Assembly: GCA_947624105.1 (NCBI GenBank)
Contig: CANQIX010000002.1
Location: forward strand, 1-63,268
DNA from: an uncultured Clostridia bacterium
GTDB taxonomy: Bacteria; Bacillota; Clostridia; Christensenellales; UBA1242
DNA: 63,268 bases
Direction of reading: 5' to 3'
Under the pieces are notes generated by a model. That model was not told the DNA's origin. It searched no databases and saw nothing but the letters and a program-made list of their open reading frames with translations. The translations under genes were made by a program, and so were the position numbers. Shown in pieces: positions 6,112 through 16,828 of this stretch (position 1 is its first letter; each line of letters starts with the position of its first letter).

Positions 6112-6140
6112 TTGACAAGTGTAGGGTTTTGGTTTATAAT
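6112..6140 (+). promoter_or_regulatory. Consensus sigma-A promoter
   Basis: TTGACA at 6112-6117, a 17-nt spacer, then TATAAT at 6135-6140. Confidence 0.7.
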
Positions 6141-6170
6141 ATGCATAAGAAAATAAGGGAGGGCACTAAG

Positions 6171-7589
6171 ATGGCTTCAAATAAAAATTATCAAAATTTC
6201 GATAAAGTAACAAAAAAACAGGTTAGCAAGATTCTTGATTCTTACAAAACTGAGTATAAAGAAGAAAAAGTTCAACCAGTTTCTTTCGTTGGGGTTAGAA
6301 AAAATGGCGCTGGCGACGAAGTTTATTCAGATGTTAACTTAGTTATTCGCGATGGAAGAGGATATATCACTTATGCATACAACGACAAAGAATATGTTGG
6401 TGCAGTAACCAAAGTTGTATCTCGTTCAGACGCTCCAACTTCTTGCGATGTTGAATTTGTTAGACCTAAATATAAAGAAGAAGGTTTGGTTTCTGACAGA
6501 AGAACAGTTGGATTCTCTAAAGACTTAAGCCAAAAAGAAGTAAAGGCTTTTGTTAAAGAACTTAAAGCAGCAAAAGCAGAAACTTCTTCTACAAAAACTT
6601 TTGAAAAAGTTTCAGTTGACAAGAAAAAAGAGGGCAGATTTTCTAGATTTATTAAAAAATCAGAGGCAATTGTTCTTGCAACAATCTTAGGATTGTCTGC
6701 AATCGGGACTATTGGAGGACTTGGAGGACTTGGTTTAGGAATTTACCTTGTAGTACACAACAACTCTCACCATGAAAAAACACTTCCAGACGATGACAAC
6801 AAGAAACCTGATGACAACAAGAAAGAAGACGAAGATGGACCATCAACACAAGGTGGAGAATCAAGTACCAACTTCAGCACTAGCGATCAAAACATTATTC
6901 AGGCTACAAACAAAGTTCTTGAGGGAAGAATTAGTGGAGATGTTAATCCTGTTGCTATCTACAAATATGCATATAAAGCAACAGCAGATGACATATTAGA
7001 AGAAGATATCACAGTTGCTTATAAATATGTTGTTGTTGCAGAGGAAGGAGATAACCTTTACTACATCAGCACAGTAAGCAATAAAGAGTGCGAAAACGCT
7101 GAAGAACTTGGAAATAGCATTAAAGACAATGCAAACATTGACAAGGTTTACACAACAGTTGGAAGTTACTTAAGAGGCGTTGTAAACGAAGAAAAAGGTG
7201 AAGATGCTGAAGAGTATTATCAAACTTTCCTTGATGCGCTTGAAAGTGTTAAAGGCAAAACAGTTACCGATGCTTACGTAAAGACCGAAGAAAACGGAAC
7301 AAAATGCCAGTTTAGAAAGAGCCACGAAGGTGATATCAACTATCGTTACGATGCAGAACTTGCAATTGTTTACGGTGCAGACTATGAAAACGTTGAAACA
7401 GAAGTTTATGCATCTACCGCTAAAAACTCAGCAGATATCTTAGCAAGCATTGCTTCAGAAGTTGTTAACAGCAATACTGAAAACGGAAAACTTGATCGTG
7501 TTGCTTCTAAGAACTACACAGCATCAGGTCTTGGAACTAAGGGTGCAGAAACTGAAGCCCCAGAAACCGAAGACGCTCCAACATTATAA
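6171..7589 (+). CDS. Single-pass membrane protein of unknown function (paralog A)
   Basis: ATG 6171 is preceded by aagggaggg; the track start at 6129 lies inside the promoter. A central TM (AIVLATILGLSAIGTIGGLGGLGLGIYLVV) is present. The C-terminal module FRKSHEGDINYRYDAELAIV... is shared with the next gene. Confidence 0.65.
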   Translation: MASNKNYQNFDKVTKKQVSKILDSYKTEYKEEKVQPVSFVGVRKNGAGDEVYSDVNLVIRDGRGYITYAYNDKEYVGAVTKVVSRSDAPTSCDVEFVRPKYKEEGLVSDRRTVGFSKDLSQKEVKAFVKELKAAKAETSSTKTFEKVSVDKKKEGRFSRFIKKSEAIVLATILGLSAIGTIGGLGGLGLGIYLVVHNNSHHEKTLPDDDNKKPDDNKKEDEDGPSTQGGESSTNFSTSDQNIIQATNKVLEGRISGDVNPVAIYKYAYKATADDILEEDITVAYKYVVVAEEGDNLYYISTVSNKECENAEELGNSIKDNANIDKVYTTVGSYLRGVVNEEKGEDAEEYYQTFLDALESVKGKTVTDAYVKTEENGTKCQFRKSHEGDINYRYDAELAIVYGADYENVETEVYASTAKNSADILASIASEVVNSNTENGKLDRVASKNYTASGLGTKGAETEAPETEDAPTL

Positions 7590-7702: not shown

Positions 7703-9004
7703 ATGAAAAAGAAAAATTGGACACCATACGGACATTTAACAGATCAATCAAGAAAGAATATTAAAAGCAAGTTAGAAGAATTCCAAACTGTATCTGCTGC
7801 TGCAGAAACTCAAACAGTAGTTCTTACACCAGAAAAAGGTGGCGGTTCAGTTACAGGAAGACTTTATGTTACAGGCAAAAATGCTTATATTAACTATGAA
7901 CTTGGAAATAAAAAACGTGTTGGGTTGATAACAAATATTGACACAACTCCAGATAGCGCCGGTCGATATCAAATAAGTTATGCAAGAAACAAAAAACTTG
8001 CAGGTGGTGCGGTTTTTGATACCTATATATCTTTCGACAGACAGAGACTTACTCTTGAACACGAGAAAAAGTTTATAAACAAGGTAGAAAAACAGGCATT
8101 CAAAGTTGAAAAGTTGTCTGACAAAGAAATAAAGGACAAGAGAAACAAATCTATCGGAAAGTGGACAGGTGGGGTCCTTATTGCAGCAGCACTCATAACT
8201 GCGGGTATATTTATTGGACGCGCTACTGTACCTGCAAAAGATAATGGAGGTTCTACACCACCAAATCCTGGCTCAGGCATTGTACAACCAGGACCAACCA
8301 CTGAAGATGTTAAAGTAAACAGAGTTGATTTAACCGAAGAAGATAAGCAAACTCTTAATGAAAAACTTGCGCAGGTGCTTGCCGAAAATGGAAAAGATGT
8401 AAGTGCCGGAGTTGAACTCCAAGAGATGTGCTATACACCTAAAAATACAGAAACTAACATTGACGAAAATAAAATCACTATTCACCTTGCTAATTACACA
8501 ATGCACGTTACCTGTGGAGATCGTTTGTATGAAATCACTTCTTCTGGTGGTGATTTCCAAGATGTTAAAACTTTTGTTGAAAGCGATATGCAAAATGCAA
8601 CAGTTGCTAAAGAATATCAAACAGTTGGCGGATTCGTAGAAAATAACGATTATTACAACACCTTTAAAGATGCACTCAGCAAAAAGTCTGGAGAAAAAGT
8701 TAAAGATGTGTATGTAATTGTTGAAAAAGACGGAATGAAGGAAAGTTTTAGAAAGAGCCACGAGGGTGATACCAACTATCGTTACGACGCAGACCTATTA
8801 GTTGTTGACGGAGCAGGTTACCAAAATGCCAAAACTTACACCTATAGCACAACTGCTAAGAATACCAAAGCGATTCTTGACACAATTATGTCCGAAGTAA
8901 ACAACAATGTTATGAACGAAGCAAAACTTGACGATGCTAAAAACTTTACCGCTCAAGGATTTGGAACGATAAACCACGAAGCATCTGCAGAACACAATGC
9001 GTAA
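7703..9004 (+). CDS. Single-pass membrane protein of unknown function (paralog B)
   Basis: SD aaggaggtgg lies upstream. A central TM (WTGGVLIAAALITAGIFIG) is present. The C-terminal FRKSHEGDTNYRYDADLLVV...STTAKNTKAILDTIMSEV aligns with paralog A. Confidence 0.65.
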   Translation: MKKKNWTPYGHLTDQSRKNIKSKLEEFQTVSAAAETQTVVLTPEKGGGSVTGRLYVTGKNAYINYELGNKKRVGLITNIDTTPDSAGRYQISYARNKKLAGGAVFDTYISFDRQRLTLEHEKKFINKVEKQAFKVEKLSDKEIKDKRNKSIGKWTGGVLIAAALITAGIFIGRATVPAKDNGGSTPPNPGSGIVQPGPTTEDVKVNRVDLTEEDKQTLNEKLAQVLAENGKDVSAGVELQEMCYTPKNTETNIDENKITIHLANYTMHVTCGDRLYEITSSGGDFQDVKTFVESDMQNATVAKEYQTVGGFVENNDYYNTFKDALSKKSGEKVKDVYVIVEKDGMKESFRKSHEGDTNYRYDADLLVVDGAGYQNAKTYTYSTTAKNTKAILDTIMSEVNNNVMNEAKLDDAKNFTAQGFGTINHEASAEHNA

Positions 9005-9206: not shown

Positions 9207-9776
9207 ATGAAAAATATAGAAACAGAAAGATTGATTTTGAGGGAGTGGACACTTAAAGATGTGCCTGACCAAGTGGAAGGGCTCGGCAATTTTGAAACGG
9301 CAAAAAATCTTACCGTTCCATTTCCTTACACTGAGGAAAATTCGGTTGCATATATCACGAAACACCTAAAAAACACTCCGGCAAGTTATGCTTTTGCCGT
9401 TCAACTTAAAGGCACAAACAAGGTGATTGGCGGAACAAGTTTGGATTTTAGAGATGGGCAATATAATGGCGGAATATGGCTGAACGAAGCATACACTGGC
9501 AAGGGCTACGGCACTGAGGTTTGGATTGCGCGCGCTAAATTCGCATTTGAAGTTTTGAAAGAAAAGGAAATTGTGTGCGGCTATTTTGAGTTTAATAACC
9601 GCTCCAAACATATGCAAGAAAAAATTGGGCATAAAACGGTTGGCAAACAGACAAATTTTTGCCCGGCGCTAAATAAAGAGGTTGCAGAAGTTCTCACGAC
9701 ACTTAAAAAAGAAGATTTCTATGCCGCAATGCAATCTCCAAAACTAAAACCAGTCTATGACAAAATCAAAGTGTAA
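9207..9776 (+). CDS. GNAT family N-acetyltransferase (RimJ/RimL-like)
   Basis: MKNIETERLILREWTLKD... is a typical RimJ/RimL N-terminus. The acetyl-CoA region reads GKGYGTE. The track start at 9147 overlaps tRNA-Leu and is rejected. Confidence 0.7.
   Translation: MKNIETERLILREWTLKDVPDQVEGLGNFETAKNLTVPFPYTEENSVAYITKHLKNTPASYAFAVQLKGTNKVIGGTSLDFRDGQYNGGIWLNEAYTGKGYGTEVWIARAKFAFEVLKEKEIVCGYFEFNNRSKHMQEKIGHKTVGKQTNFCPALNKEVAEVLTTLKKEDFYAAMQSPKLKPVYDKIKV
9701..9770 (+). repeat. Direct repeat copy A (3' end of the GNAT gene)
   Basis: acttaaaaaagaagatttctatgccgcaatgcaatctccaaaactaaaaccagtctatgacaaaatcaaa recurs at 9932-10002 with 1 indel and 2 substitutions. Confidence 0.9.
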
Positions 9777-9823: not shown

Positions 9824-9852
9824 TTGACTTTTAAATTTTTATGGCATATAAT
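9824..9852 (+). promoter_or_regulatory. Sigma-A promoter between the direct repeats
   Basis: TTGACT at 9824-9829, a 17-nt spacer, then TATAAT at 9847-9852. Confidence 0.55.
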
Positions 9853-9858
9853 AATCAT

Positions 9859-9922
9859 AGCAAAGTAAATCAAATTTCTTTACGGCGGTCATCTTAAAGT
9901 TGGGCTCGCCGTTTCTTTTTTT
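9859..9922 (+). ncRNA. Candidate small RNA of about 65 nt, unknown function
   Basis: The promoter at 9824-9852 is followed by the GC stem acggcg (9882-9887) paired with cgccgt (9907-9912), then ttcttttttt. No ORF is present. The ends are predicted, not measured. Confidence 0.35.
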
Positions 9923-9931
9923 ATTTTTTCT

Positions 9932-10002
9932 ACTTAAAAAAAGAAGATTTCTATGCCGCAATGCAATCTCCAAAACTAAAACCGGTCTATGACAAAATTA
10001 AA
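9932..10002 (+). repeat. Direct repeat copy B (orphan duplicate of the GNAT 3' end)
   Basis: About 96 percent identical to 9701-9770. It is followed by a weak terminator. Confidence 0.9.
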
Positions 10003-10104: not shown

Positions 10105-10134
10105 TTGACATATATTAGGTTTTTATGTTAATTT
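10105..10134 (+). promoter_or_regulatory. Putative tracrRNA (and cas operon) promoter
   Basis: TTGACA at 10105-10110, an 18-nt spacer, then TGtTAATTT (extended -10) at 10126-10134. Confidence 0.5.
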
Positions 10135-10140
10135 ATTATT

Positions 10141-10249
10141 GTAACTTTATACCATACCAAACAGATTAAGGTTACTAAAACATGGGGATTCTCTTTTGAG
10201 ACCCGCAAAGCTCTAAGTCCGCTGGTTCTCAACGGACTTATCTTTTTTT
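10141..10249 (+). ncRNA. tracrRNA of the type II-C CRISPR-Cas9 system
   Basis: The anti-repeat at 10146-10181 (tttataccataccaaacagattaaggttactaaaac) matches the plus-strand CRISPR repeat at 30 of 36 positions. It therefore pairs with the minus-strand crRNA repeat, with internal mismatches forming a bulge. A stem gggattctc/gagaccc follows. The terminator aagtccg-ctggttctcaa-cggactt plus tcttttttt ends at 10249. The 5' end is predicted. Confidence 0.8.
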
Positions 10250-10261
10250 AAGGGGAAATTT

Positions 10262-13200
10262 ATGAAATATAGAATTGGTCTTGATATTGGAATAGCGTCG
10301 GTTGGCTGGTGCGTTATGAAGCACAATGAAAATGATGAGCCTTGCCAAATTATGGATTTAGGGGTTCGAAAGTTTTCGCCTGCAGAAAAGCCAAAAACGG
10401 GAGAATCTCCTGCCGTTGACAGAAGAGTTGCTCGCGGAATAAGAAGGAACATAAGACGCAAGAGGGAGAGGTTAGACAAATTAAAGGAGACACTTCAATC
10501 TCAACTTTTAGATGGGAAAGATATAGATTTTTCTCCATGTGAGTTGTATGTTTTGCGTGCAAAGGCTCTTGATGAAAAAATTGATGATAATGCACTTTCG
10601 CGTGTTATTTATTCTATTGCAAAGCATCGCGGTTTTAAATCAAATCGAAAGGCAGAGTTAAAAGAAAACGAAACTTCAAAGATGAAAAAAGCGATAGAAG
10701 AGAATAGAACAAACATCAGCAAATATCGTTCTATTGGTGAAATGTATCTAAAAGACGAAAAGTATCACGAAGTTCGTGAAAAAAGTTGCAATGGTGCAGT
10801 TACACAATATTCTGTTTTTCATACGCGAAATGATGCAAATCAATACGATAAAACATTGAGTAGGAGCGATGTGCTGAATGAGATTCAAACTATTCTTGAA
10901 GCGCAGCAACGATTAGGAAATGAAAAGATTACGACTGAATTTATAAATAAAATTTTGCACATTGTTGACTATCAAAAATCATACGATGAAGGGCCGGACT
11001 ATCCAAGCCCATATCACGTTTCATTTGCTGTAGGAAATTGCACGTTTTTTAAAGATGAGCAACGCGCTCCAAAGGCGGCATTTAGTTATGAATATTTTAC
11101 TGCACTTTGCGATATCAATCATTTGACTATAAATGGTGAAAAATTAACAGACGAGCAGAGACAAATCCTTATTGATGCATTTTTAAGTTCTGAGAGTGTA
11201 AAGTATTCTAAAGTTAAAAAACTTTTGAAACTTGATGAAAATGCAAAATTGGGCGGTAAAAGTGGTAGTGATAAAGACGACAGAGTTTTTGTGGCAAGAA
11301 AATTTTCTTATGAAGTCTTAAAAATCTTGAATATCAAAGAAAATCCAAAGGCTTATGAAGATTTGTTGAACAAAATTGCATACTGCTTTGCTATTTATAA
11401 GTCAGACGAGAGACGCTTGTCATATTTACATAAAGAAACTGACTTGTCTAAAGAAGAATGCGAAGCGCTTTTGGAACTTGACACAAGCAAGTTTGGAAAT
11501 CTGTGTGTAAAGGCGTTGAAAATGCTTAATACTGAACTTGAAAAAGGGGTAGTGTATTCTCAGGCGTGCCAAAATGCAGGACTTTTTAATGCTGAAAGCG
11601 AAAAGAAAATTAAGTTGAAATATAACGAGTTACCTGAAATTGAAGATATTACCTCGCCAGTTGTAAAGCGATCAGTTTCTCAAACGATAAAGGTTGTAAA
11701 CGCTATTATTGAAAAATATGGTTCTCCTTGCGCTATATATGTTGAACTTGCGCGTGAAATGAGCAAGGATTTTGCAGAGCGTAAAAAAATAGAGAAGCAG
11801 CAAGAAAGTGGATATGAGGAAAACGATAAGGCGATTAAAAGACTTAAAGAACTCGGCTTTGTTTCTCCAACTGGGCAAGATATTCTTAAATATAGACTTT
11901 ATGAAGAACAGGGCGGAAAATGTGCATACTCGCAGAAAGAATTTGTATCGGTGTTTGGCAGCCTTCAAAACGCATTTTTAAATAATAACACGCAAATTGA
12001 CCATATTATTCCTTACAGTCGCTGCTATAATGACAGTTTTAGCAATAAGGTGCTTGTGCTATCAAGCGAAAACTATGTAAAGGGGAATCGACTCCCTTAT
12101 GAATACTTTGGGAGCGATGAACAAAGATGGAATCAATTTGAAGCGTGGGCGATACAAACCTATCTAACAAACGGGAAAAAGAAGAGTCCTAAACTTGAAA
12201 GACTATTGCAAAGAGGACTTTCGGACGAGCAAGAACAAGAACTTAACAACCGCGCTTTGAACGATACAAGATATATATCCAAATTTGTTAAAGAATTATT
12301 CGAGAAACACTTAATTTTTGCCGACAGCAAACTTAGCAAAAGGCCCGTAAAAACCGTTAATGGGGTTATTACATCTTTCTTGCGCAAAATATGGGGTATA
12401 AAGAAGGAAAGATTTGAAAATGATTTGCACCACGCTGTTGACGCTTGTATCATTTCGTGCACAGATAACGGAATGATACAAAGAGTAACGAGGTTTATGC
12501 AATTTAATAGTTTGCTAAAGATTGGAAAAGAGCCCGTGTTTGTTGATAAATCTACAGGCGAAAAGTTCTCAGAAGAGCAAGTTCGTGAGAAGTATGGCGA
12601 CCATTACCAAATGCCATACGAGAACTTTAAAAGAGAGTTAGAGATTAGAATTTCTCCAAATGTTTTAAATTACAAAGACGAATTGTTTAAGTACGGATAC
12701 GATGAGGACGAATTGAACTCTTTAAGACCAGTTTTTGTTAGCAGAATGGTTAATCACAAGGTTACTGGACCAATGCACAAGCAAACAATCCGCAGCAAAA
12801 AATTATCAACAGAAGAAAATATTGTTGGGGTAACGAAAACCAGTATTCAAGAGTTAAAACTAGACAAAGACGGAGAAATTCAAGATTATCCAGAGAAATT
12901 CAAACAAGACGATCCTGTTTTGTATGAGGCACTAAGAAATCAGTTGAGAAAATTCCAAGAACAATATCCAACTGATTATGCGAAGAAGGCGTTTGCTGAG
13001 CCATTTTATAAGCCATCGCGCAATGCATCTAGCAGAAACGAAGTGAAGAGCGTTAAACTTGAAAAAAAGATGGGCGACGCAATTGAAGTCAATGGCGGAA
13101 TTGCTGAAAATGACTCAATGATAAGAATCGATGTATTTGAAAAAAAAGGAAAAACTTATTTTATTCCAGTCTATGTCATAGATTATTATAAAAAATCTCT

Positions 13201-13558
13201 TCCAAACAAAATAGCAAAGGCTGCATGTCCATATAAAGATTGGCCTGTTTGTGATGATAGTTATAAGTTTAAGTTTTCTCTCTATCAAAACGATTTAATA
13301 CATATAAAAAAGGATAAGCCAATTCCATTTTATCCAAGAGATAAAAAAGCCCCAAAAGAGGCAGTTATGCTAAACGACCTTTTCGTATATTATACGGGTG
13401 CAGACAGGTCAACAGCATCAATTTCTTTCGAAACGGTAGACGGTAAGTATTTTTCCAGAGGTAATGGGATTCAAGGCATAGAAATTGAGAAATATGAAGT
13501 CAGTATTTTGGGAAATGTTAGAAAAATTGATAACGAAACGCGCAAGGAGTTTTGCTGA
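10262..13558 (+). CDS. cas9: Cas9 endonuclease, type II-C, 1098 aa
   Basis: RuvC-I is MKYRIGLDIGIASVGW (D8). The Arg-rich bridge helix is RRVARGIRRNIRRKRERL. RuvC-II is IYVELARE. HNH is QIDHIIPYSRCYNDSFSNKVLVLSSENYVKGN (D580, H581; codons 11999-12004). RuvC-III is LHHAVDA (codons 12425-12445). cas1 and cas2 follow, with no csn2 or cas4. Confidence 0.95.
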   Translation: MKYRIGLDIGIASVGWCVMKHNENDEPCQIMDLGVRKFSPAEKPKTGESPAVDRRVARGIRRNIRRKRERLDKLKETLQSQLLDGKDIDFSPCELYVLRAKALDEKIDDNALSRVIYSIAKHRGFKSNRKAELKENETSKMKKAIEENRTNISKYRSIGEMYLKDEKYHEVREKSCNGAVTQYSVFHTRNDANQYDKTLSRSDVLNEIQTILEAQQRLGNEKITTEFINKILHIVDYQKSYDEGPDYPSPYHVSFAVGNCTFFKDEQRAPKAAFSYEYFTALCDINHLTINGEKLTDEQRQILIDAFLSSESVKYSKVKKLLKLDENAKLGGKSGSDKDDRVFVARKFSYEVLKILNIKENPKAYEDLLNKIAYCFAIYKSDERRLSYLHKETDLSKEECEALLELDTSKFGNLCVKALKMLNTELEKGVVYSQACQNAGLFNAESEKKIKLKYNELPEIEDITSPVVKRSVSQTIKVVNAIIEKYGSPCAIYVELAREMSKDFAERKKIEKQQESGYEENDKAIKRLKELGFVSPTGQDILKYRLYEEQGGKCAYSQKEFVSVFGSLQNAFLNNNTQIDHIIPYSRCYNDSFSNKVLVLSSENYVKGNRLPYEYFGSDEQRWNQFEAWAIQTYLTNGKKKSPKLERLLQRGLSDEQEQELNNRALNDTRYISKFVKELFEKHLIFADSKLSKRPVKTVNGVITSFLRKIWGIKKERFENDLHHAVDACIISCTDNGMIQRVTRFMQFNSLLKIGKEPVFVDKSTGEKFSEEQVREKYGDHYQMPYENFKRELEIRISPNVLNYKDELFKYGYDEDELNSLRPVFVSRMVNHKVTGPMHKQTIRSKKLSTEENIVGVTKTSIQELKLDKDGEIQDYPEKFKQDDPVLYEALRNQLRKFQEQYPTDYAKKAFAEPFYKPSRNASSRNEVKSVKLEKKMGDAIEVNGGIAENDSMIRIDVFEKKGKTYFIPVYVIDYYKKSLPNKIAKAACPYKDWPVCDDSYKFKFSLYQNDLIHIKKDKPIPFYPRDKKAPKEAVMLNDLFVYYTGADRSTASISFETVDGKYFSRGNGIQGIEIEKYEVSILGNVRKIDNETRKEFC

Positions 13559-14445
13559 TGGCGTATCTAAATCTCTTTGTCGGTTCAAACTGCCATATTA
13601 GTATAAAGAATTCACAATTGTTTTTAAAAAATGATATTAAACAAGAAGATTTCCCAGTTGAAGATATAAATTCAATAGTAATCGAAAATTTGCAGTCGAA
13701 CATCTCTCTTTATACGCTATCTTTCCTCGCTAAAAACAATGTTGCTGTTTTTATCTGTGACGAGCAACATTTACCATCTGCTTATCTTTTGCCATTTAAT
13801 TCCAACTACAATCAAACAAAGATGTTTAAAATTCAAACTGATATTTCTTTGCCATTTCAAAAGCAACTTTGGCAAGATATTGTTAAGCATAAAATAGAAA
13901 ATCAAAACAAATGTTTGATTTTGTGCAAAAAGAAAGGAATATTAGATGAGTTGATAAAAAGAGTAAAAACTCACGATAACACAAATGTCGAAGCGACGGC
14001 TGCAAGTAAATATTTTAAGGCATTGTTTGAATCGAATTTTACAAGAGAAAAAGACTGCGACATAAATTCCGCACTCAATTATGGATATTCAATTTTACGA
14101 GGCGCGATTGCACGAAATTTAGTTGCTCACGGGCTACTACCATTTTTAGGATTAAAACATAGTAATGTTTTAAACAATTTCAATCTCGCCGATGATTTAA
14201 TTGAAGTTTTTCGCCCTTTTGTGGATTTGTTGGTATATCAAAATTCTGAGATGCCATTTGATACAAAATACAAGATGAAACTTTTAAATCTACTTAATTA
14301 CGATTGCAAAATTTCCAATGGGTATTACACAATATCTTATGCGATAGAACTTTTTGTTCAATCGTATGTTGAAACCTTAAAATCTAAAGAGAACAAACTG
14401 AAATATCCAGAACTAATTCAGTTAAAGATGCACGAGTATGAGTAG
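13558..14445 (+). CDS. cas1: Cas1 integrase
   Basis: Follows cas9 with a TGATG overlap and an SD aaggag 8 nt upstream; the ORF also opens at TTG 13552. About 296 aa with a type II Cas1-like pattern (NTNVEATAASKYFKALF..., ALNYGYSILRGAIARNLVAHGLLP). Confidence 0.85.
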   Translation: MAYLNLFVGSNCHISIKNSQLFLKNDIKQEDFPVEDINSIVIENLQSNISLYTLSFLAKNNVAVFICDEQHLPSAYLLPFNSNYNQTKMFKIQTDISLPFQKQLWQDIVKHKIENQNKCLILCKKKGILDELIKRVKTHDNTNVEATAASKYFKALFESNFTREKDCDINSALNYGYSILRGAIARNLVAHGLLPFLGLKHSNVLNNFNLADDLIEVFRPFVDLLVYQNSEMPFDTKYKMKLLNLLNYDCKISNGYYTISYAIELFVQSYVETLKSKENKLKYPELIQLKMHEYE

Positions 14446-14758
14446 CATTATGAGGCTTTTAGTGTTTTTTGACTTGCCGGTAAAAACAAAAGAAGAAAAT
14501 AGGCAGGCGACACAGTTTAGAAAATTTTTGATCGATGATGGATTTTATATGATTCAATTTTCGTTGTATGGAAGAATATGCGCTACCATAGAAAATGCAA
14601 AACAGCACGAAGATAAAATTAAAAACTATCTACCATTTAAAGGTTCGGTTCGCAGTTTGATAATTACAGAAAAACAGTATGCAGGAATGAAGATTCTTTT
14701 AGGCAATACTAAGAAAAAAGACAAAAAAGTTGTTGAAGGACAGATTTCTTTTTTCTAA
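14438..14758 (+). CDS. cas2: Cas2
   Basis: 106 aa. (M)RLLVFFDLPVKTKEENRQATQFRKFLIDDGFYMIQFSLYGR is a typical type II Cas2. It overlaps the cas1 stop by 8 nt. An alternative ATG lies at 14450. Confidence 0.85.
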   Translation: MSSIMRLLVFFDLPVKTKEENRQATQFRKFLIDDGFYMIQFSLYGRICATIENAKQHEDKIKNYLPFKGSVRSLIITEKQYAGMKILLGNTKKKDKKVVEGQISFF

Positions 14759-14828
14759 AAAAAGTAGATTTTGACCATTTTTAAATAAAGAAAACACCAA
14801 ATTTTAAAAATTTCATAAAAAACAAAAA

Positions 14829-14871
14829 GGCTACATCAACGGAAAAACCGTAGATATAGCCTTTTGCTTTT
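14829..14871. terminator. Bidirectional terminator between cas2 and the CRISPR array
   Basis: Imperfect 14-bp hairpin ggctacatcaacgg-aaaaa-ccgtagatatagcc. It is flanked by ttttgctttt on the plus strand and ttttgtttttt on the minus strand. Confidence 0.6.
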
Positions 14872-14879
14872 AGTTCTCT

Positions 14880-15510
14880 ATTATACCATACCAAACAAAA
14901 TAAGGGAACTAAAATGTTTCGATGCTTGAAATCTTACTCATTTCTATTATACCATACCAAACAAAATAAGGGAACTAAAATGCTTGTAGTTTTGCCTTTG
15001 CAAGGTCTATTATTATACCATACCAAACAAAATAAGGGAACTAAAATCCGTAGTTGATTTGGCTGTTTGCGCTACAAGATTATACCATACCAAACAAAAT
15101 AAGGGAACTAAAATTAGTTTGCTGCTATTGAACAATTCACCATCATTATACCATACCAAACAAAATAAGGGAACTAAAATATTTGTAAAGTCTCCATACA
15201 TTCCTTGAACATTATACCATACCAAACAAAATAAGGGAACTAAAATCAGGCTGTTGTAGTATTTTCTCCGTTAAATATTATACCATACCAAACAAAATAA
15301 GGGAACTAAAATACTTTGTTGATGCACGCTGAAGTCAAATTCATTATACCATACCAAACAAAATAAGGGAACTAAAATAAAATGGTGTTACATAAAGCAA
15401 GTAATCAAATTATACCATACCAAACAAAATAAGGGAACTAAAATTGTCTTTTAACTTGAAACTCCAACATTTTGATTATATCATATAAAAGCAGAATTAG
15501 AAAACTAAAA
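14880..15510 (-). CRISPR. CRISPR array: 9 identical 36-nt repeats, 1 degenerate terminal repeat, 9 spacers
   Basis: The plus-strand repeat is attataccataccaaacaaaataagggaactaaaat. Repeats start at 14880, 14946, 15012, 15079, 15145, 15211, 15277, 15343 and 15409, with the degenerate copy at 15475-15510. Spacers are 30 nt except spacer 3 (15048-15078), which is 31 nt. In crRNA sense (minus strand) the repeat reads ATTTTAGTTCCCTTATTTTGTTTGGTATGGTATAAT. Confidence 0.97.
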
Positions 15511-15560
15511 ACTTTATGCTTTTGCTTGATTTTTGATGATTTTTATGCAATAATATGATT

Positions 15561-15682
15561 ACCATAAAGAGTGTGTTAGGGACAAGCCCGTTGATCACAC
15601 AGCAACCTGCAAGTGCAAGGTGCTAAGGCTTGAACGATGGAGTTATATGAAGTTTAATCCCATCGTATCGATGGGATTTTTT
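15561..15682 (+). promoter_or_regulatory. SAM-I (S-box) riboswitch leader of metK
   Basis: Conserved S-box elements are present: aaagagtgtgttagggacaagcccgttgatcacacagcaacc...aaggtgctaa. The terminator is aatcccatcg-tat-cgatgggatt followed by tttt. The cgatgg at 15635-15640 can instead pair with cccatcg as an antiterminator. metK lies directly downstream. Confidence 0.85.
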
Positions 15683-15712
15683 AATCTCTTTATGTGTTAA
15701 AAGGGGTAAAAA

Positions 15713-16828
15713 ATGAAAAAGAAGGAAACAACAAGAAAAATAATCACAAGTGAAAGCGTAAATATTGGGCACCCGGACAAGACTTGCGATTACATTGCCG
15801 ACAGTTTTTTAGACGAGGCGCTTAGGCAAGATAAAAACAGCCAAATGGCGGTTGAATGTGCGATAAAAAACGACAAATTGTTTATCTATGGAGAGGCAAC
15901 TACGACTGCCAAAATTGACTATGATGCCATCGCCAAAAAGGCGCTGAAAGAGATAGGCTATCAAAACGAATTTACGATAGTAAAAGAATTAAGCGAGCAA
16001 AGTGTGGAGATAAATCGTGCGGTGAACAGCACAGAAATCTCTGCGAATGACCAAGGAATTGTGTATGGTTATGCGACAAACGAAACGGACACATTTATGC
16101 CACTTCCAATCACGCTTGCACACGAACTTATGAAGAAATACGATGCGTATAGGCGCAGTGGAGAGGAGTTTTTTGCAGATGCGAAATCGCAGGTTAGTGT
16201 GCTTTATGAAGACGACAAACCTATAAGGGTAACCGATCTACTAATTTCCGTTTCGCACGCAGAAAATTTGAAAAGTGGCGAAATCTATGCAAAAATAATG
16301 CAAAATGTAATAAAACCAACGATAAAAAAGTATGAAAAGTATTTTGACGACAATACGAAATACATCATAAATCCAAGCGGGAAGTTTACGATTTGGGGGA
16401 GTTTTGGAGACAGTGGCTGCGTTGGAAGGAAGATCATCGTCGACACCTATGGCGGAGTTGGACGAGTTGGCGGAGGGTGTTTTTCTTCTAAAAACGCGAC
16501 CAAAGTCGATAGATCTGGGGCATACTACGCGCGATATGTTGCAAAAAATATTGTGGCGAACGGGCTTGCAGACAGGTGCGAAGTTGAGGCTTGCTTTGCG
16601 ATAGGCGTAGCAAAACCTTTAAGCATCTCGATTGACTGCTTTGGCACGAACAAAGTTCCAGAGGAGCAGATTGAGAAGTTTGTTTCGAAAAATTTTGACT
16701 TCTCACTTAGCAATATAATAAAGGAACTTGATTTGCTTAAGCCGATATACAAAAACACTGCCTGCTATGGGCACTTTGGCAGAGGCGAATTTCCTTGGGA
16801 GAAGGTAAAGAATTTGAGGGAAGAATGA
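15713..16828 (+). CDS. metK: S-adenosylmethionine synthetase
   Basis: ITSESVNIGHPDKTCDYIADSFLDEAL and GGGCFSSKNATKVDRSGAYYARY are MetK signatures. SD aaagggg lies upstream. Confidence 0.92.
   Translation: MKKKETTRKIITSESVNIGHPDKTCDYIADSFLDEALRQDKNSQMAVECAIKNDKLFIYGEATTTAKIDYDAIAKKALKEIGYQNEFTIVKELSEQSVEINRAVNSTEISANDQGIVYGYATNETDTFMPLPITLAHELMKKYDAYRRSGEEFFADAKSQVSVLYEDDKPIRVTDLLISVSHAENLKSGEIYAKIMQNVIKPTIKKYEKYFDDNTKYIINPSGKFTIWGSFGDSGCVGRKIIVDTYGGVGRVGGGCFSSKNATKVDRSGAYYARYVAKNIVANGLADRCEVEACFAIGVAKPLSISIDCFGTNKVPEEQIEKFVSKNFDFSLSNIIKELDLLKPIYKNTACYGHFGRGEFPWEKVKNLREE

What the first reader, a model, noticed from the sequence alone, without database searches (positions are those of the whole stretch)
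10105..15510. Complete, compact type II-C CRISPR-Cas9 locus with an uncharacterised 1098-aa Cas9
The order is tracrRNA, cas9, cas1, cas2, then the array, all within 5.4 kb. No csn2 or cas4 is present. Cas9 carries intact RuvC-I (D8), HNH (D580, H581) and RuvC-III (HHAVD) motifs. The nine identical repeats and size-uniform spacers (eight of 30 nt, one of 31 nt) suggest an active system. A Cas9 of this size with a definable guide scaffold is directly testable: the crRNA repeat is ATTTTAGTTCCCTTATTTTGTTTGG... and the tracrRNA spans 10146-10249. As an example, the guide sense of spacer 1 is agaaatgagtaagatttcaagcatcgaaac. The PAM cannot be read from this window.
Basis: partly seen in the sequence, partly recalled or inferred. 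Interest (0 to 1): 0.75.

Follow-up and report, generated by a model that had tools for sequence, protein, structure and literature searches.

The report
Ordinary complete type II-C Cas9 locus
This stretch is a genuine, intact type II-C CRISPR-Cas9 immune locus from an uncultured gut Clostridia bacterium; it is a new but ordinary relative of the GeoCas9 and NmeCas9 group, and its DNA target motif (PAM) is still unknown.

Summary
The locus reads tracrRNA (10141-10249), cas9 (10262-13558, 1098 aa), cas1, cas2, a leader, then nine identical 36-nt repeats. A tenth, degenerate repeat (15475-15510) bounds the ninth spacer, giving eight spacers of 30 nt and one of 31 nt. All catalytic residues are intact: D8, E495, D580/H581/N604, H724/D727. 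No csn2 or cas4 lies nearby; the flanks are tRNA-Leu plus a GNAT acetyltransferase gene on one side and a SAM riboswitch plus metK on the other.

The Cas9 scores best against solved type II-C enzymes (AtCas9, GeoCas9, ThermoCas9, Nme1Cas9). It is 37% identical to a Geobacillus GeoCas9-type protein, whose locus has the same gene order and a homologous repeat. crRNAs read on the minus strand. Every repeat ends in TGGTATAAT, an extended -10 promoter like those in the Neisseria, Campylobacter and C. cellulolyticum II-C systems.

The tracrRNA call is well supported. Its duplex with the repeat is -40 kcal/mol, against -13 for shuffled repeats, and its hairpins covary across 17 related loci.

No protospacer was found for any window spacer, so the PAM stays unknown. 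This is a new member of a known kind, one of thousands of II-C orthologs, and the interest is low to moderate. Two small conserved RNA features, a tracrRNA 5' hairpin and an anti-repeat-like leader element, are the only unexpected items.

The parts
10105..10134 (+). Predicted tracrRNA promoter: -35 TTGACA (10105-10110), then TG-n-TAATTT extended -10 (TG 10126-10127, hexamer 10129-10134).
   Evidence: Read directly from the sequence. The same -35 / TGn-10 layout sits 6-7 nt before a conserved GTAAC in 8 related loci. It is not experimentally mapped, and the consensus scanner did not list it.
10141..10249 (+). tracrRNA, about 109 nt. Anti-repeat 10146-10181; GGG...CCC hairpin 10185-10204; terminator hairpin 10215-10239 followed by T7 at 10243-10249. 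The 5' GUAACUUUA can pair with UAAGGUUAC of the anti-repeat.
   Evidence: The duplex with the crRNA repeat is -40.2 kcal/mol, against -13.1 +/- 2.5 for shuffled repeats. The fold has z = -3.3. The same three-hairpin layout appears in 8 loci, with 7 compensatory pairs. A covariance model finds it just upstream of cas9 in further loci, and the pairs hold across 17 sequences. The repeat G>A change in L002 is matched by a change in its anti-repeat.
10262..13558 (+). cas9, 1098 aa, type II-C. RuvC-I D8; RuvC-II E495; HNH D580, H581, N604; RuvC-III H724, D727. The RBS AAGGGG lies 6 nt upstream.
   Evidence: TIGR01865 at 754 bits; Pfam HNH_4, RuvC_III, Cas9_RuvC and Cas9_a; full-length matches to AtCas9, GeoCas9, ThermoCas9 and Nme1Cas9; motif alignment; 37% identity to the Geobacillus jurassicus Cas9.
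13558..14445 (+). cas1 (295 aa from the ATG at 13558, overlapping the cas9 stop as TAATG).
   Evidence: TIGR03639 cas1_NMENI at 278 bits; PADLOC Cas1_II at 339 bits. It aligns with the type II-A Cas1 chain 4zkj and close relatives; the positions I recall as catalytic (E, H, E) look conserved, but those positions are from memory. The 295-aa gene call is the same in relatives.
14438..14758 (+). cas2 (106 aa).
   Evidence: TIGR01573 at 75 bits; PADLOC Cas2_II at 143 bits.
14759..14879 (.). Leader between cas2 and the first repeat. It holds an A-run / hairpin / T-run bidirectional terminator (about 14825-14868) and the junction sequence TTTTAGTTCTCT (14868-14879), which is an inverted copy of the far end of the repeat.
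   Evidence: The hairpin has z = -6.0 on the + strand and -7.3 on the - strand. It covaries and keeps its position in 8 loci. The junction element pairs with repeat nt 2-13 at 11/13 positions, against a mean of about 5 for spacers. Calling this the acquisition end is an inference, from the degenerate repeat lying at the opposite end and from N. meningitidis (PMC12477760).
14880..15444 (-). CRISPR array: 9 identical 36-nt repeats and 8 internal spacers. In crRNA sense (minus strand) the repeat is ATTTTAGTTCCCTTATTTTGTTTGGTATGGTATAAT, and its last 9 nt, TGGTATAAT, form an extended -10 promoter.
   Evidence: The motif is kept in all related repeats, including those of Geobacillus. Precedents are N. 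meningitidis and C. jejuni (PMC5965381) and C. cellulolyticum (PMC7038990).
15445..15510 (-). Ninth (probably oldest) spacer at 15445-15474, plus a degenerate terminal repeat at 15475-15510. The degenerate repeat keeps only the promoter half (TGATATAAT in crRNA sense).
   Evidence: Several related arrays (L004, L005, L007/L008, L009) also end in a repeat that keeps ATTATACCATACCAAA and then degenerates; in L002 and L011 the flank shows no clear copy.

Best explanation
This is a chromosomal, apparently functional type II-C CRISPR-Cas9 adaptive immune locus of the GeoCas9/AtCas9-like branch, in an uncultured Clostridia bacterium with 38% G+C.

Proposed mechanism:
1. A sigma-70-type promoter (10105-10134) drives a tracrRNA of about 109 nt from about G10141 to an intrinsic terminator ending at 10249. 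That terminator ends only 12 nt before the cas9 start codon, so cas9-cas1-cas2 is probably expressed by read-through from the same promoter. This step is an inference.
2. crRNAs are made on the minus strand. Each repeat ends in TGGTATAAT, which should start transcription about 6-8 nt into the next spacer. That would give a guide of about 22-24 nt followed by the 36-nt repeat, without a leader promoter. The degenerate distal repeat serves only as the promoter for the ninth spacer. The motif is shown; transcription is inferred from N. meningitidis, C. jejuni and C. cellulolyticum.
3. The repeat pairs with the anti-repeat (10146-10181) in a duplex of about 31 bp with a 2-nt internal loop. Cas9 binds the dual RNA.
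4. Cas9 then cleaves matching DNA next to a 3' PAM, using HNH (D580/H581/N604) and RuvC (D8/E495/H724/D727). The residues are shown; the activity and the PAM are not.
5. Cas1-Cas2 add new spacers at the cas2-proximal leader end. That makes 'spacer 1' (14916-14945) the newest spacer and the last one transcribed.
For: - Profile matches for Cas9, Cas1 and Cas2 are far above their cut-offs.
- The Cas9 aligns over its full length with solved II-C Cas9s, and the catalytic residues are conserved.
- There are nine identical repeats with uniform spacers.
- The anti-repeat is found, with duplex energy -40.2 against -13.1 +/- 2.5 kcal/mol for shuffled repeats.
- The tracrRNA structure is conserved and covaries in 17 related loci.
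- A compensating repeat/anti-repeat change is seen in L002.
- TGnTATAAT is kept at the 3' end of every related repeat and in the degenerate terminal repeat.
- The Geobacillus GeoCas9-type locus has the same gene order and a homologous repeat.
- A strain 98% identical over 5.6 kb keeps the whole cassette intact.
- The flanks are housekeeping genes, with no csn2 or cas4.
- Repeat-embedded promoters in type II-C are documented in PMC5965381, PMC7038990 and PMC12477760.
Against: - No transcript, cleavage or PAM data exist.
- No protospacer was found for any of the nine window spacers in GenBank phages, PLSDB plasmids or the window itself. Eight spacers were also negative in IMG/VR and two in JGI metagenomes. 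Recent activity therefore cannot be shown.
- The tracrRNA promoter has a weak -10 hexamer (TAATTT) and was not listed by the consensus scanner.
- Clade placement rests on score ranking, not on a phylogenetic tree.
Confidence: 0.9

Rival explanations
1. The locus is a decaying or silent remnant. It looks like type II-C but no longer provides interference or acquires spacers.
For: No spacer matches any phage, plasmid, viral contig or metagenome contig searched. The array is short. Relatives include reduced versions: single-spacer arrays in L004 and L005, and a cas9 followed directly by a leader and repeat with no cas1 or cas2 in L006.
Against: All three ORFs are full length, with translationally coupled overlaps. 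All Cas9 catalytic residues are present, and the Cas1 active-site positions (as recalled) look conserved. The nine repeats are 100% identical. A strain 98% identical keeps every part. Missing protospacers are normal for uncultured gut taxa; the C. cellulolyticum study also found none (PMC7038990).
Confidence: 0.07
2. The array is transcribed on the + strand as one pre-crRNA from the cas2-side leader, as in type II-A, and the tracrRNA lies on the minus strand.
For: The leader sits next to cas2, as in II-A loci. A few weak + strand promoter-like hits fall in the array.
Against: The anti-repeat at 10146-10181 has the same sense as the + strand repeat, so it can only pair with a minus-strand repeat transcript. 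The covarying hairpins and T-run that follow it are on the + strand. In minus sense the repeat starts ATTTTAGTTCCC and ends TGGTATAAT, as the GeoCas9 repeat does. A strong hairpin with a T-run separates cas2 from the array.
Confidence: 0.02
3. It belongs to another type II subtype (II-A, II-B or II-D), or is an IscB/Cas9-like transposon nuclease rather than type II-C.
For: The generic Cas9 profiles do not separate subtypes. There is a partial match to the Cas9d model.
Against: No csn2 or cas4 is present. The Cas9d score of 149 is far below its cut-off of 375. Scores against II-C structures are three times or more those against II-A ones. The protein is full size, with a REC lobe and a C-terminal region that aligns with GeoCas9 to the end.
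Confidence: 0.01

Closest known systems
GeoCas9 / ThermoCas9 (Geobacillus type II-C; PDB 8jtj, 8uza, 9ar4; Geobacillus jurassicus locus L017)
   Same: The order is the same: tracrRNA, cas9, cas1, cas2, leader hairpin, array. The tracrRNA has the same orientation as cas9 and its terminator lies directly upstream of cas9. The repeat is 36 nt, shares TAGTTCCC near its 5' end and ends in TGGTATAAT. The anti-repeat contains GGTTACTA. The size is similar (1087 against 1098 aa) and all catalytic motifs align.
   Different: Protein identity is only 37%. The host is a low-GC gut Clostridia bacterium, not a thermophilic Bacillales. The Geobacillus leader lacks the anti-repeat-like junction, and its array lacks a degenerate promoter-only terminal repeat. 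The PAM is unknown here, whereas GeoCas9 uses N4CNAA according to PMC7038990.
AtCas9 (Alicyclobacillus tengchongensis, type II-C; PDB 21dz/9wac; bioRxiv 10.64898/2026.01.30.702744)
   Same: It is the best-scoring solved structure (659 bits, E 1e-196) and aligns from residue 1 to 1097.
   Different: It is longer (1154 aa), with insertions. By eye from the printed alignment, identity is roughly 40%. Its locus was not examined here.
Nme1Cas9 / N. meningitidis type II-C system
   Same: It has a cas9-cas1-cas2-only operon and repeat-embedded extended -10 promoters, which give RNase III-independent crRNAs that start inside the spacer. Its acquisition leader also lies at the transcriptionally downstream end (PMC5965381, PMC12477760). 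The HNH and RuvC motifs align.
   Different: The score is lower (496 bits). The repeat sequence differs. Promoter use is demonstrated in Neisseria but only inferred here from the motif.
CcCas9 (Clostridium cellulolyticum H10 type II-C, PMC7038990)
   Same: It is also a Clostridia type II-C system with the tracrRNA upstream of the cas genes. The last 9 nt of its repeat resemble an extended -10. Its crRNAs carry 23-26 nt of spacer, and no protospacers were found in databases.
   Different: CcCas9 is 1021 aa and uses an N4GNA PAM. Its sequence relationship to the window protein was not measured here, because no sequence was at hand.

Membership tests
Type II CRISPR-Cas (Cas9 systems) | A single large effector with a split RuvC-like domain and an inserted HNH domain, with catalytic residues present. 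| tested here: met
   TIGR01865 at 754 bits against a cut-off of 100. Pfam HNH_4 and RuvC_III. D8, E495, D580/H581/N604 and H724/D727 align with GeoCas9, ThermoCas9 and Nme1Cas9.
Type II CRISPR-Cas (Cas9 systems) | A tracrRNA whose anti-repeat is complementary to the CRISPR repeat. | tested here: met
   The anti-repeat at 10146-10181 matches at 30/36. The duplex is -40.2 kcal/mol against -13.1 +/- 2.5 for shuffles. Downstream hairpins are conserved and covary in 17 loci. Expression was not tested.
Subtype II-C | The cas operon consists of cas9, cas1 and cas2 only, with no csn2 (II-A) and no cas4 (II-B). | tested here: met
   The neighbours are tRNA-Leu, a GNAT gene, a SAM riboswitch, metK, DUF4186 and an RNA methyltransferase. 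No flanking ORF gave a PADLOC or Pfam hit to Csn2 or Cas4.
Subtype II-C | The Cas9 sequence groups with II-C reference proteins. | tested here: met
   Bit scores are AtCas9 659, GeoCas9 652-654, ThermoCas9 650 and Nme1Cas9 496, against SaCas9 216-220 and St1Cas9 193-197. No chain I recognise as a II-B Cas9 appears at E <= 1e-5. This is a ranking by score; no tree was built.
Subtype II-C | Repeat-embedded promoters that give crRNAs independently of processing. This feature is seen in several II-C systems and is not obligatory. | tested here: inconclusive
   TGGTATAAT forms the last 9 nt of every repeat and is retained in the degenerate terminal repeat and in related repeats. Transcription start sites cannot be tested with these tools.
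Subtype II-C | RNA-guided cleavage of double-stranded DNA next to a 3' PAM. | not testable with these tools
   No protospacer was found, so no PAM can be read. This needs a biochemical assay.
Subtype II-D (Cas9d) | A match to the Cas9d-specific model above its cut-off, and a compact protein of about 750 aa. | tested here: not met
   NF049971 scores 148.9 bits against a cut-off of 375, and the protein is 1098 aa.
Subtype II-A | A csn2 gene downstream of cas2, with array transcription driven from the leader. | tested here: not met
   cas2 is followed by the 121-nt leader and the array, with no ORF between them. II-A Cas9s score a third or less of the II-C ones.

The most novel reading that the evidence does not exclude
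In this Clostridia II-C clade, both guide RNAs may carry built-in decoys for the Cas9-proximal half of the repeat:anti-repeat duplex.

- tracrRNA: it starts at a conserved GUAAC whose first 9-11 nt pair with the 3' half of its own anti-repeat. More distant relatives have an equivalent 5' hairpin in a different register.
- Leader: the leader RNA immediately downstream of the newest crRNA is anti-repeat-like (AGAGAACUAAAAG) and can pair with nt 2-13 of that repeat.
- Terminator: the tracrRNA terminator abuts the cas9 ribosome-binding site.

Together these could form a regulatory layer that tunes tracrRNA availability, handling of the newest spacer and cas9 dosage. This would be comparable to tracr-L autoregulation or leader-RNA spacer prioritisation in type II-A, and I am not aware that it has been described for type II-C (from memory, not from a targeted literature search).
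Probability: 0.15. Interest if true: 0.5.

Novelty: new member of a known kind. Interest (0 to 1): 0.25.

Why it matters
The practical value is modest. This is one more Cas9 of about 1100 aa, with a defined crRNA, tracrRNA and sgRNA scaffold, from a mesophilic gut anaerobe. It is about 37-40% identical to any characterised enzyme, so it may have a different PAM and could be tested straight away. Biologically it confirms that the GeoCas9-type locus design extends into uncultured gut Clostridia: tracrRNA as a 5' leader of cas9, promoters inside the repeats, and the acquisition leader at the transcriptional 3' end. It opens no long-standing question. Only the two small conserved RNA pairings (the tracrRNA 5' hairpin and the anti-repeat-like leader junction) might deserve follow-up.

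Tried and rejected
1. PAM inference.
- All nine window spacers were searched by BLAST against GenBank phages and PLSDB plasmids. Only chance-level hits appeared (E = 1, Vibrio phages).
- No self-target exists in the window; the best match is 20/30.
- Exact 20-22-mers from eight spacers against IMG/VR, and from two spacers against JGI metagenomes, all returned nothing.
- 75 pooled spacers from related arrays gave one plausible hit. An L011 spacer matches the microvirus Dulem virus 166 at 27/30, with 3' flank CGCATCAA. That Cas9 is only 51% identical to the window's and the E-value is about 0.9, so I rejected it as a PAM for this enzyme.

2. Rfam, at both gathering and E-value thresholds, has no family that covers this tracrRNA. 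Only the SAM riboswitch and tRNAs were found.

3. Literature searches for the repeat sequence and for a 1098-aa II-C Cas9 found no characterised match.

4. I considered whether the 66-nt duplication of the GNAT gene's 3' end marks the insertion boundary of the cassette. I rejected this: both copies lie upstream of the tracrRNA promoter and enclose only 166 bp, and nothing matching lies beyond the array.

5. I considered a natural-sgRNA (tracr-L-like) reading of the tracrRNA 5' hairpin. It is not supported, because the predicted start at G10141 leaves no guide segment.

6. Evidence that the leader/repeat pairing acts at the RNA level is weak. The G.U wobbles in L002, L004 and L014 favour the crRNA-sense strand (11 against 9-10 pairs), but this is probably a single evolutionary event.


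Full report
**Observation**

- ORF listing and profile searches give cas9 at 10262-13558 (1098 aa; TIGR01865 at 754 bits over the whole model; Pfam HNH_4, RuvC_III, Cas9_RuvC and Cas9_a), cas1 (TIGR03639 cas1_NMENI, 278 bits) and cas2 at 14438-14758 (TIGR01573). PADLOC agrees: Cas9, Cas1_II and Cas2_II.
- The likely cas1 start is the ATG at 13558, which overlaps the cas9 stop as TAATG. This gives the 295 aa seen in all relatives.
- A script found nine exact copies of the 36-nt repeat at 14880-15444, with spacers of 30, 30, 31, 30, 30, 30, 30 and 30 nt. A ninth 30-nt spacer (15445-15474) is closed by a degenerate tenth repeat at 15475-15510 (21/36 identical).
- The quoted repeat and the spacer-1 guide are exact.

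**Orientation and crRNA production**

The sequence at 10146-10181 matches the + strand repeat at 30/36. Nothing else in the 63-kb window exceeds 24/36. This anti-repeat can therefore only pair with a minus-strand transcript of the array.

In that sense the repeat reads ATTTTAGTTCCCTTATTTTGTTTGGTATGGTATAAT. Its last nine bases, TGGTATAAT, are a perfect extended -10 element. The motif is kept in every related repeat I collected, including Geobacillus repeats. It is also kept in the otherwise degenerate terminal repeat (TGATATAAT).

Several related arrays (L004, L005, L007/L008, L009) likewise end in a repeat that keeps the promoter half and has lost the Cas9-binding half. In L002 and L011 the flank shows no clear copy. 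That pattern makes sense if the terminal repeat's only job is to transcribe the adjacent spacer.

Repeat-embedded promoters that start crRNAs inside the spacer are established for N. meningitidis and C. jejuni (PMC5965381; PMC12477760 places the start at the 6th spacer nucleotide). They were also noted for C. cellulolyticum, whose crRNAs carry 23-26 nt of spacer (PMC7038990). Here the motif is shown and the transcription is inferred.

**tracrRNA**

Upstream of the anti-repeat lie TTGACA (10105-10110) and TG-n-TAATTT (hexamer 10129-10134). Eight distinct related loci have the same -35 / TGn-10 layout, placed 6-7 nt before a conserved GTAAC.

The RNA would end at a hairpin (10215-10239) followed by T7 (10243-10249). 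Supporting results:
- The fold has z = -3.3.
- The duplex with the repeat is -40.2 kcal/mol, against -13.1 +/- 2.5 for shuffled repeats. It has about 31 bp with a 2-nt internal loop.
- All eight homologous RNAs fold into the same three elements, and RNAalifold finds seven pairs with compensatory changes.
- A covariance model built from them finds the element just upstream of cas9 in more distant Clostridia II-C loci. Across 17 distinct sequences the nexus-like and terminator stems stay paired through many pair types.
- In L002 (Cas9 74% identical) the repeat differs by one G>A, and its anti-repeat carries the matching change.
- Rfam has no family for this RNA.

The T-run ends 12 nt before the cas9 ATG, and those 12 nt are the ribosome-binding site. 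In most relatives the gap is 9-26 nt. The cas operon is therefore most likely transcribed by read-through from the tracrRNA promoter. This is an inference.

**Subtype and relatives**

Against the PDB, the protein aligns end to end with several type II-C enzymes:
- AtCas9 (21dz/9wac, identified through bioRxiv 10.64898/2026.01.30.702744): 659 bits.
- GeoCas9: 652-654 bits.
- ThermoCas9-length chains: 650 bits.
- Nme1Cas9: 496 bits.

The organism names for chains other than AtCas9 are my own recollection from PDB codes and chain lengths, because the tool gives only 'Cas9'. Chains I take to be II-A score about 193-220 bits, and no chain I recognise as II-B appears at E <= 1e-5. The Cas9d model scores below its cut-off.

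The HNH and RuvC-III segments align residue for residue with these enzymes. The deposited GeoCas9 chains carry an alanine exactly opposite H581. Motif positions are D8, E495, D580, H581, N604, H724 and D727.

I fetched a Geobacillus jurassicus locus that is 96% identical to a GeoCas9 fragment. It has the same order (tracrRNA, cas9, cas1, cas2, leader hairpin, array) and a homologous 36-nt repeat, GTCATAGTTCCCC...TGGTATAAT. Its Cas9 is 37% identical to the window's over the full length.

**Flanks**

The flanking genes are tRNA-Leu, a GNAT acetyltransferase gene, a SAM riboswitch with metK, DUF4186, an RNA methyltransferase, metG, hisS, comEC and holA. None matches Csn2, Cas4 or any PADLOC model. 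The locus is chromosomal type II-C.

**Distribution**

The nearest proteins come from unnamed assemblies:
- 99% identity on a Logan contig that is 98% identical in DNA over 5.6 kb, so a sister strain with the same cassette.
- 74% identity, including a rabbit-gut 'uncultured Clostridia' MAG.
- 59% or less after that.

More than 2600 homologs score below E 1e-50. The repeat family occurs in four species-representative genomes, all uncultured Clostridia MAGs. Related cassettes sit between different neighbouring genes.

**Polarity of the array**

The degenerate repeat lies at the end far from cas2. The cas2-proximal flank (14759-14879) is conserved in layout across loci: an A-run, a covarying hairpin, a T-run, then a conserved junction TTTTAG(Y)(Y)(Y)(Y)CT that abuts the first repeat. 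The hairpin is a strong terminator in both directions (z = -6.0 and -7.3).

By analogy with N. meningitidis, where the acquisition leader flanks the last-transcribed repeat (PMC12477760), this is the leader. Spacer 1 (14916-14945) would then be the newest spacer.

**PAM**

The PAM was not obtained. Every search with the window's spacers was negative or at chance level. A pooled search with 75 spacers from relatives gave one weak microvirus hit, for a Cas9 only 51% identical to the window's.

**Side observations**

1. The first 9-11 nt of the tracrRNA (GUAACUUUA) pair with the 3' half of its own anti-repeat (UAAGGUUAC). The arm changes together with the anti-repeat in L005, L006 and L009. More distant relatives such as L025 have a 5' hairpin in another register.
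2. The last 12-13 nt of the leader are an inverted copy of the repeat's far end. In crRNA sense the leader RNA AGAGAACUAAAAG can pair with repeat nt 2-13 at 11/13 positions, against a mean of about 5 for spacers. A weaker form appears in L028, L030 and L031. The feature is absent from the Geobacillus clade.

Their function is unknown. Candidates are protection of the RNA 5' end, control of crRNA:tracrRNA pairing for the newest spacer, or a DNA-level leader-anchoring site for Cas1-Cas2.

**Verdict**

The observation and its interpretation are correct. This is a complete type II-C locus with an uncharacterised Cas9 ortholog of normal II-C size, built like the GeoCas9 system. It is a new member of a known kind. 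It is useful as a candidate enzyme but not surprising.

Noticed in passing
window 9705-9770 and 9937-10002 (also present in L003): The last 66 nt of the GNAT acetyltransferase gene are duplicated at 97% identity, 232 nt apart. The 166 nt between the copies carry a near-consensus promoter (TTGACT-17-TATAAT, 9824-9852) and a weak hairpin with a T-run (about 9883-9925; fold z = -2.1). This could be a small RNA or a recombination scar. The sister strain L003, 98% identical, has it too.
   Followed up: partly
window 10141-10175; L002, L004-L007, L009, L011, L025: The 5' end of the tracrRNA (conserved GUAAC at the predicted +1) pairs with the 3' half of its own anti-repeat, forming a 9-11-bp 5'-terminal hairpin. 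The arm covaries with the anti-repeat, and more distant relatives form a 5' hairpin in a different register.
   Followed up: partly
window 14868-14879 (leader/repeat junction); L002, L004-L007, L009, L011, L014, and weaker in L028, L030, L031: The last 12-13 nt of the leader (TTTTAGTTCTCT) are an inverted copy of the repeat's distal end. As crRNA-sense RNA the element is anti-repeat-like and pairs with nt 2-13 of the adjacent repeat (11/13, against about 5 for spacers). It is absent from Geobacillus-type loci.
   Followed up: partly
L006 8169-8267 (Logan SRR29273038 contig; Cas9 58% identical): In this relative, cas9 is followed directly by the leader hairpin and the first repeat, with no cas1 or cas2. 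It looks like an interference-only version of the same system. The contig ends inside the first repeat.
   Followed up: no
L004 and L005, downstream of cas2: These two related loci carry minimal arrays: one full repeat, one spacer and one degenerate repeat that keeps only the promoter half.
   Followed up: no
L011 spacer against PP511356.1 (Dulem virus 166), 2056-2085: A spacer from a related array (Cas9 51% identical) matches the DNA pilot protein gene of a lemur-gut microvirus at 27/30, with 3' flank CGCATCAACG. The BLAST E-value is about 0.9, so this is only a lead for the targets or PAM of that relative.
   Followed up: partly
window 15559-15643 and 15656-15688: A SAM-I riboswitch (Rfam RF00162, 52.8 bits) and its terminator precede metK (15713-16828), immediately after the array. 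They are unrelated to the CRISPR locus but mark its right-hand boundary.
   Followed up: yes
window 7703-9004, 6129-7589, 483-1838: Three sizeable ORFs upstream of the locus (433, 486 and 451 aa) match no Pfam, NCBIfam or PADLOC family.
   Followed up: partly
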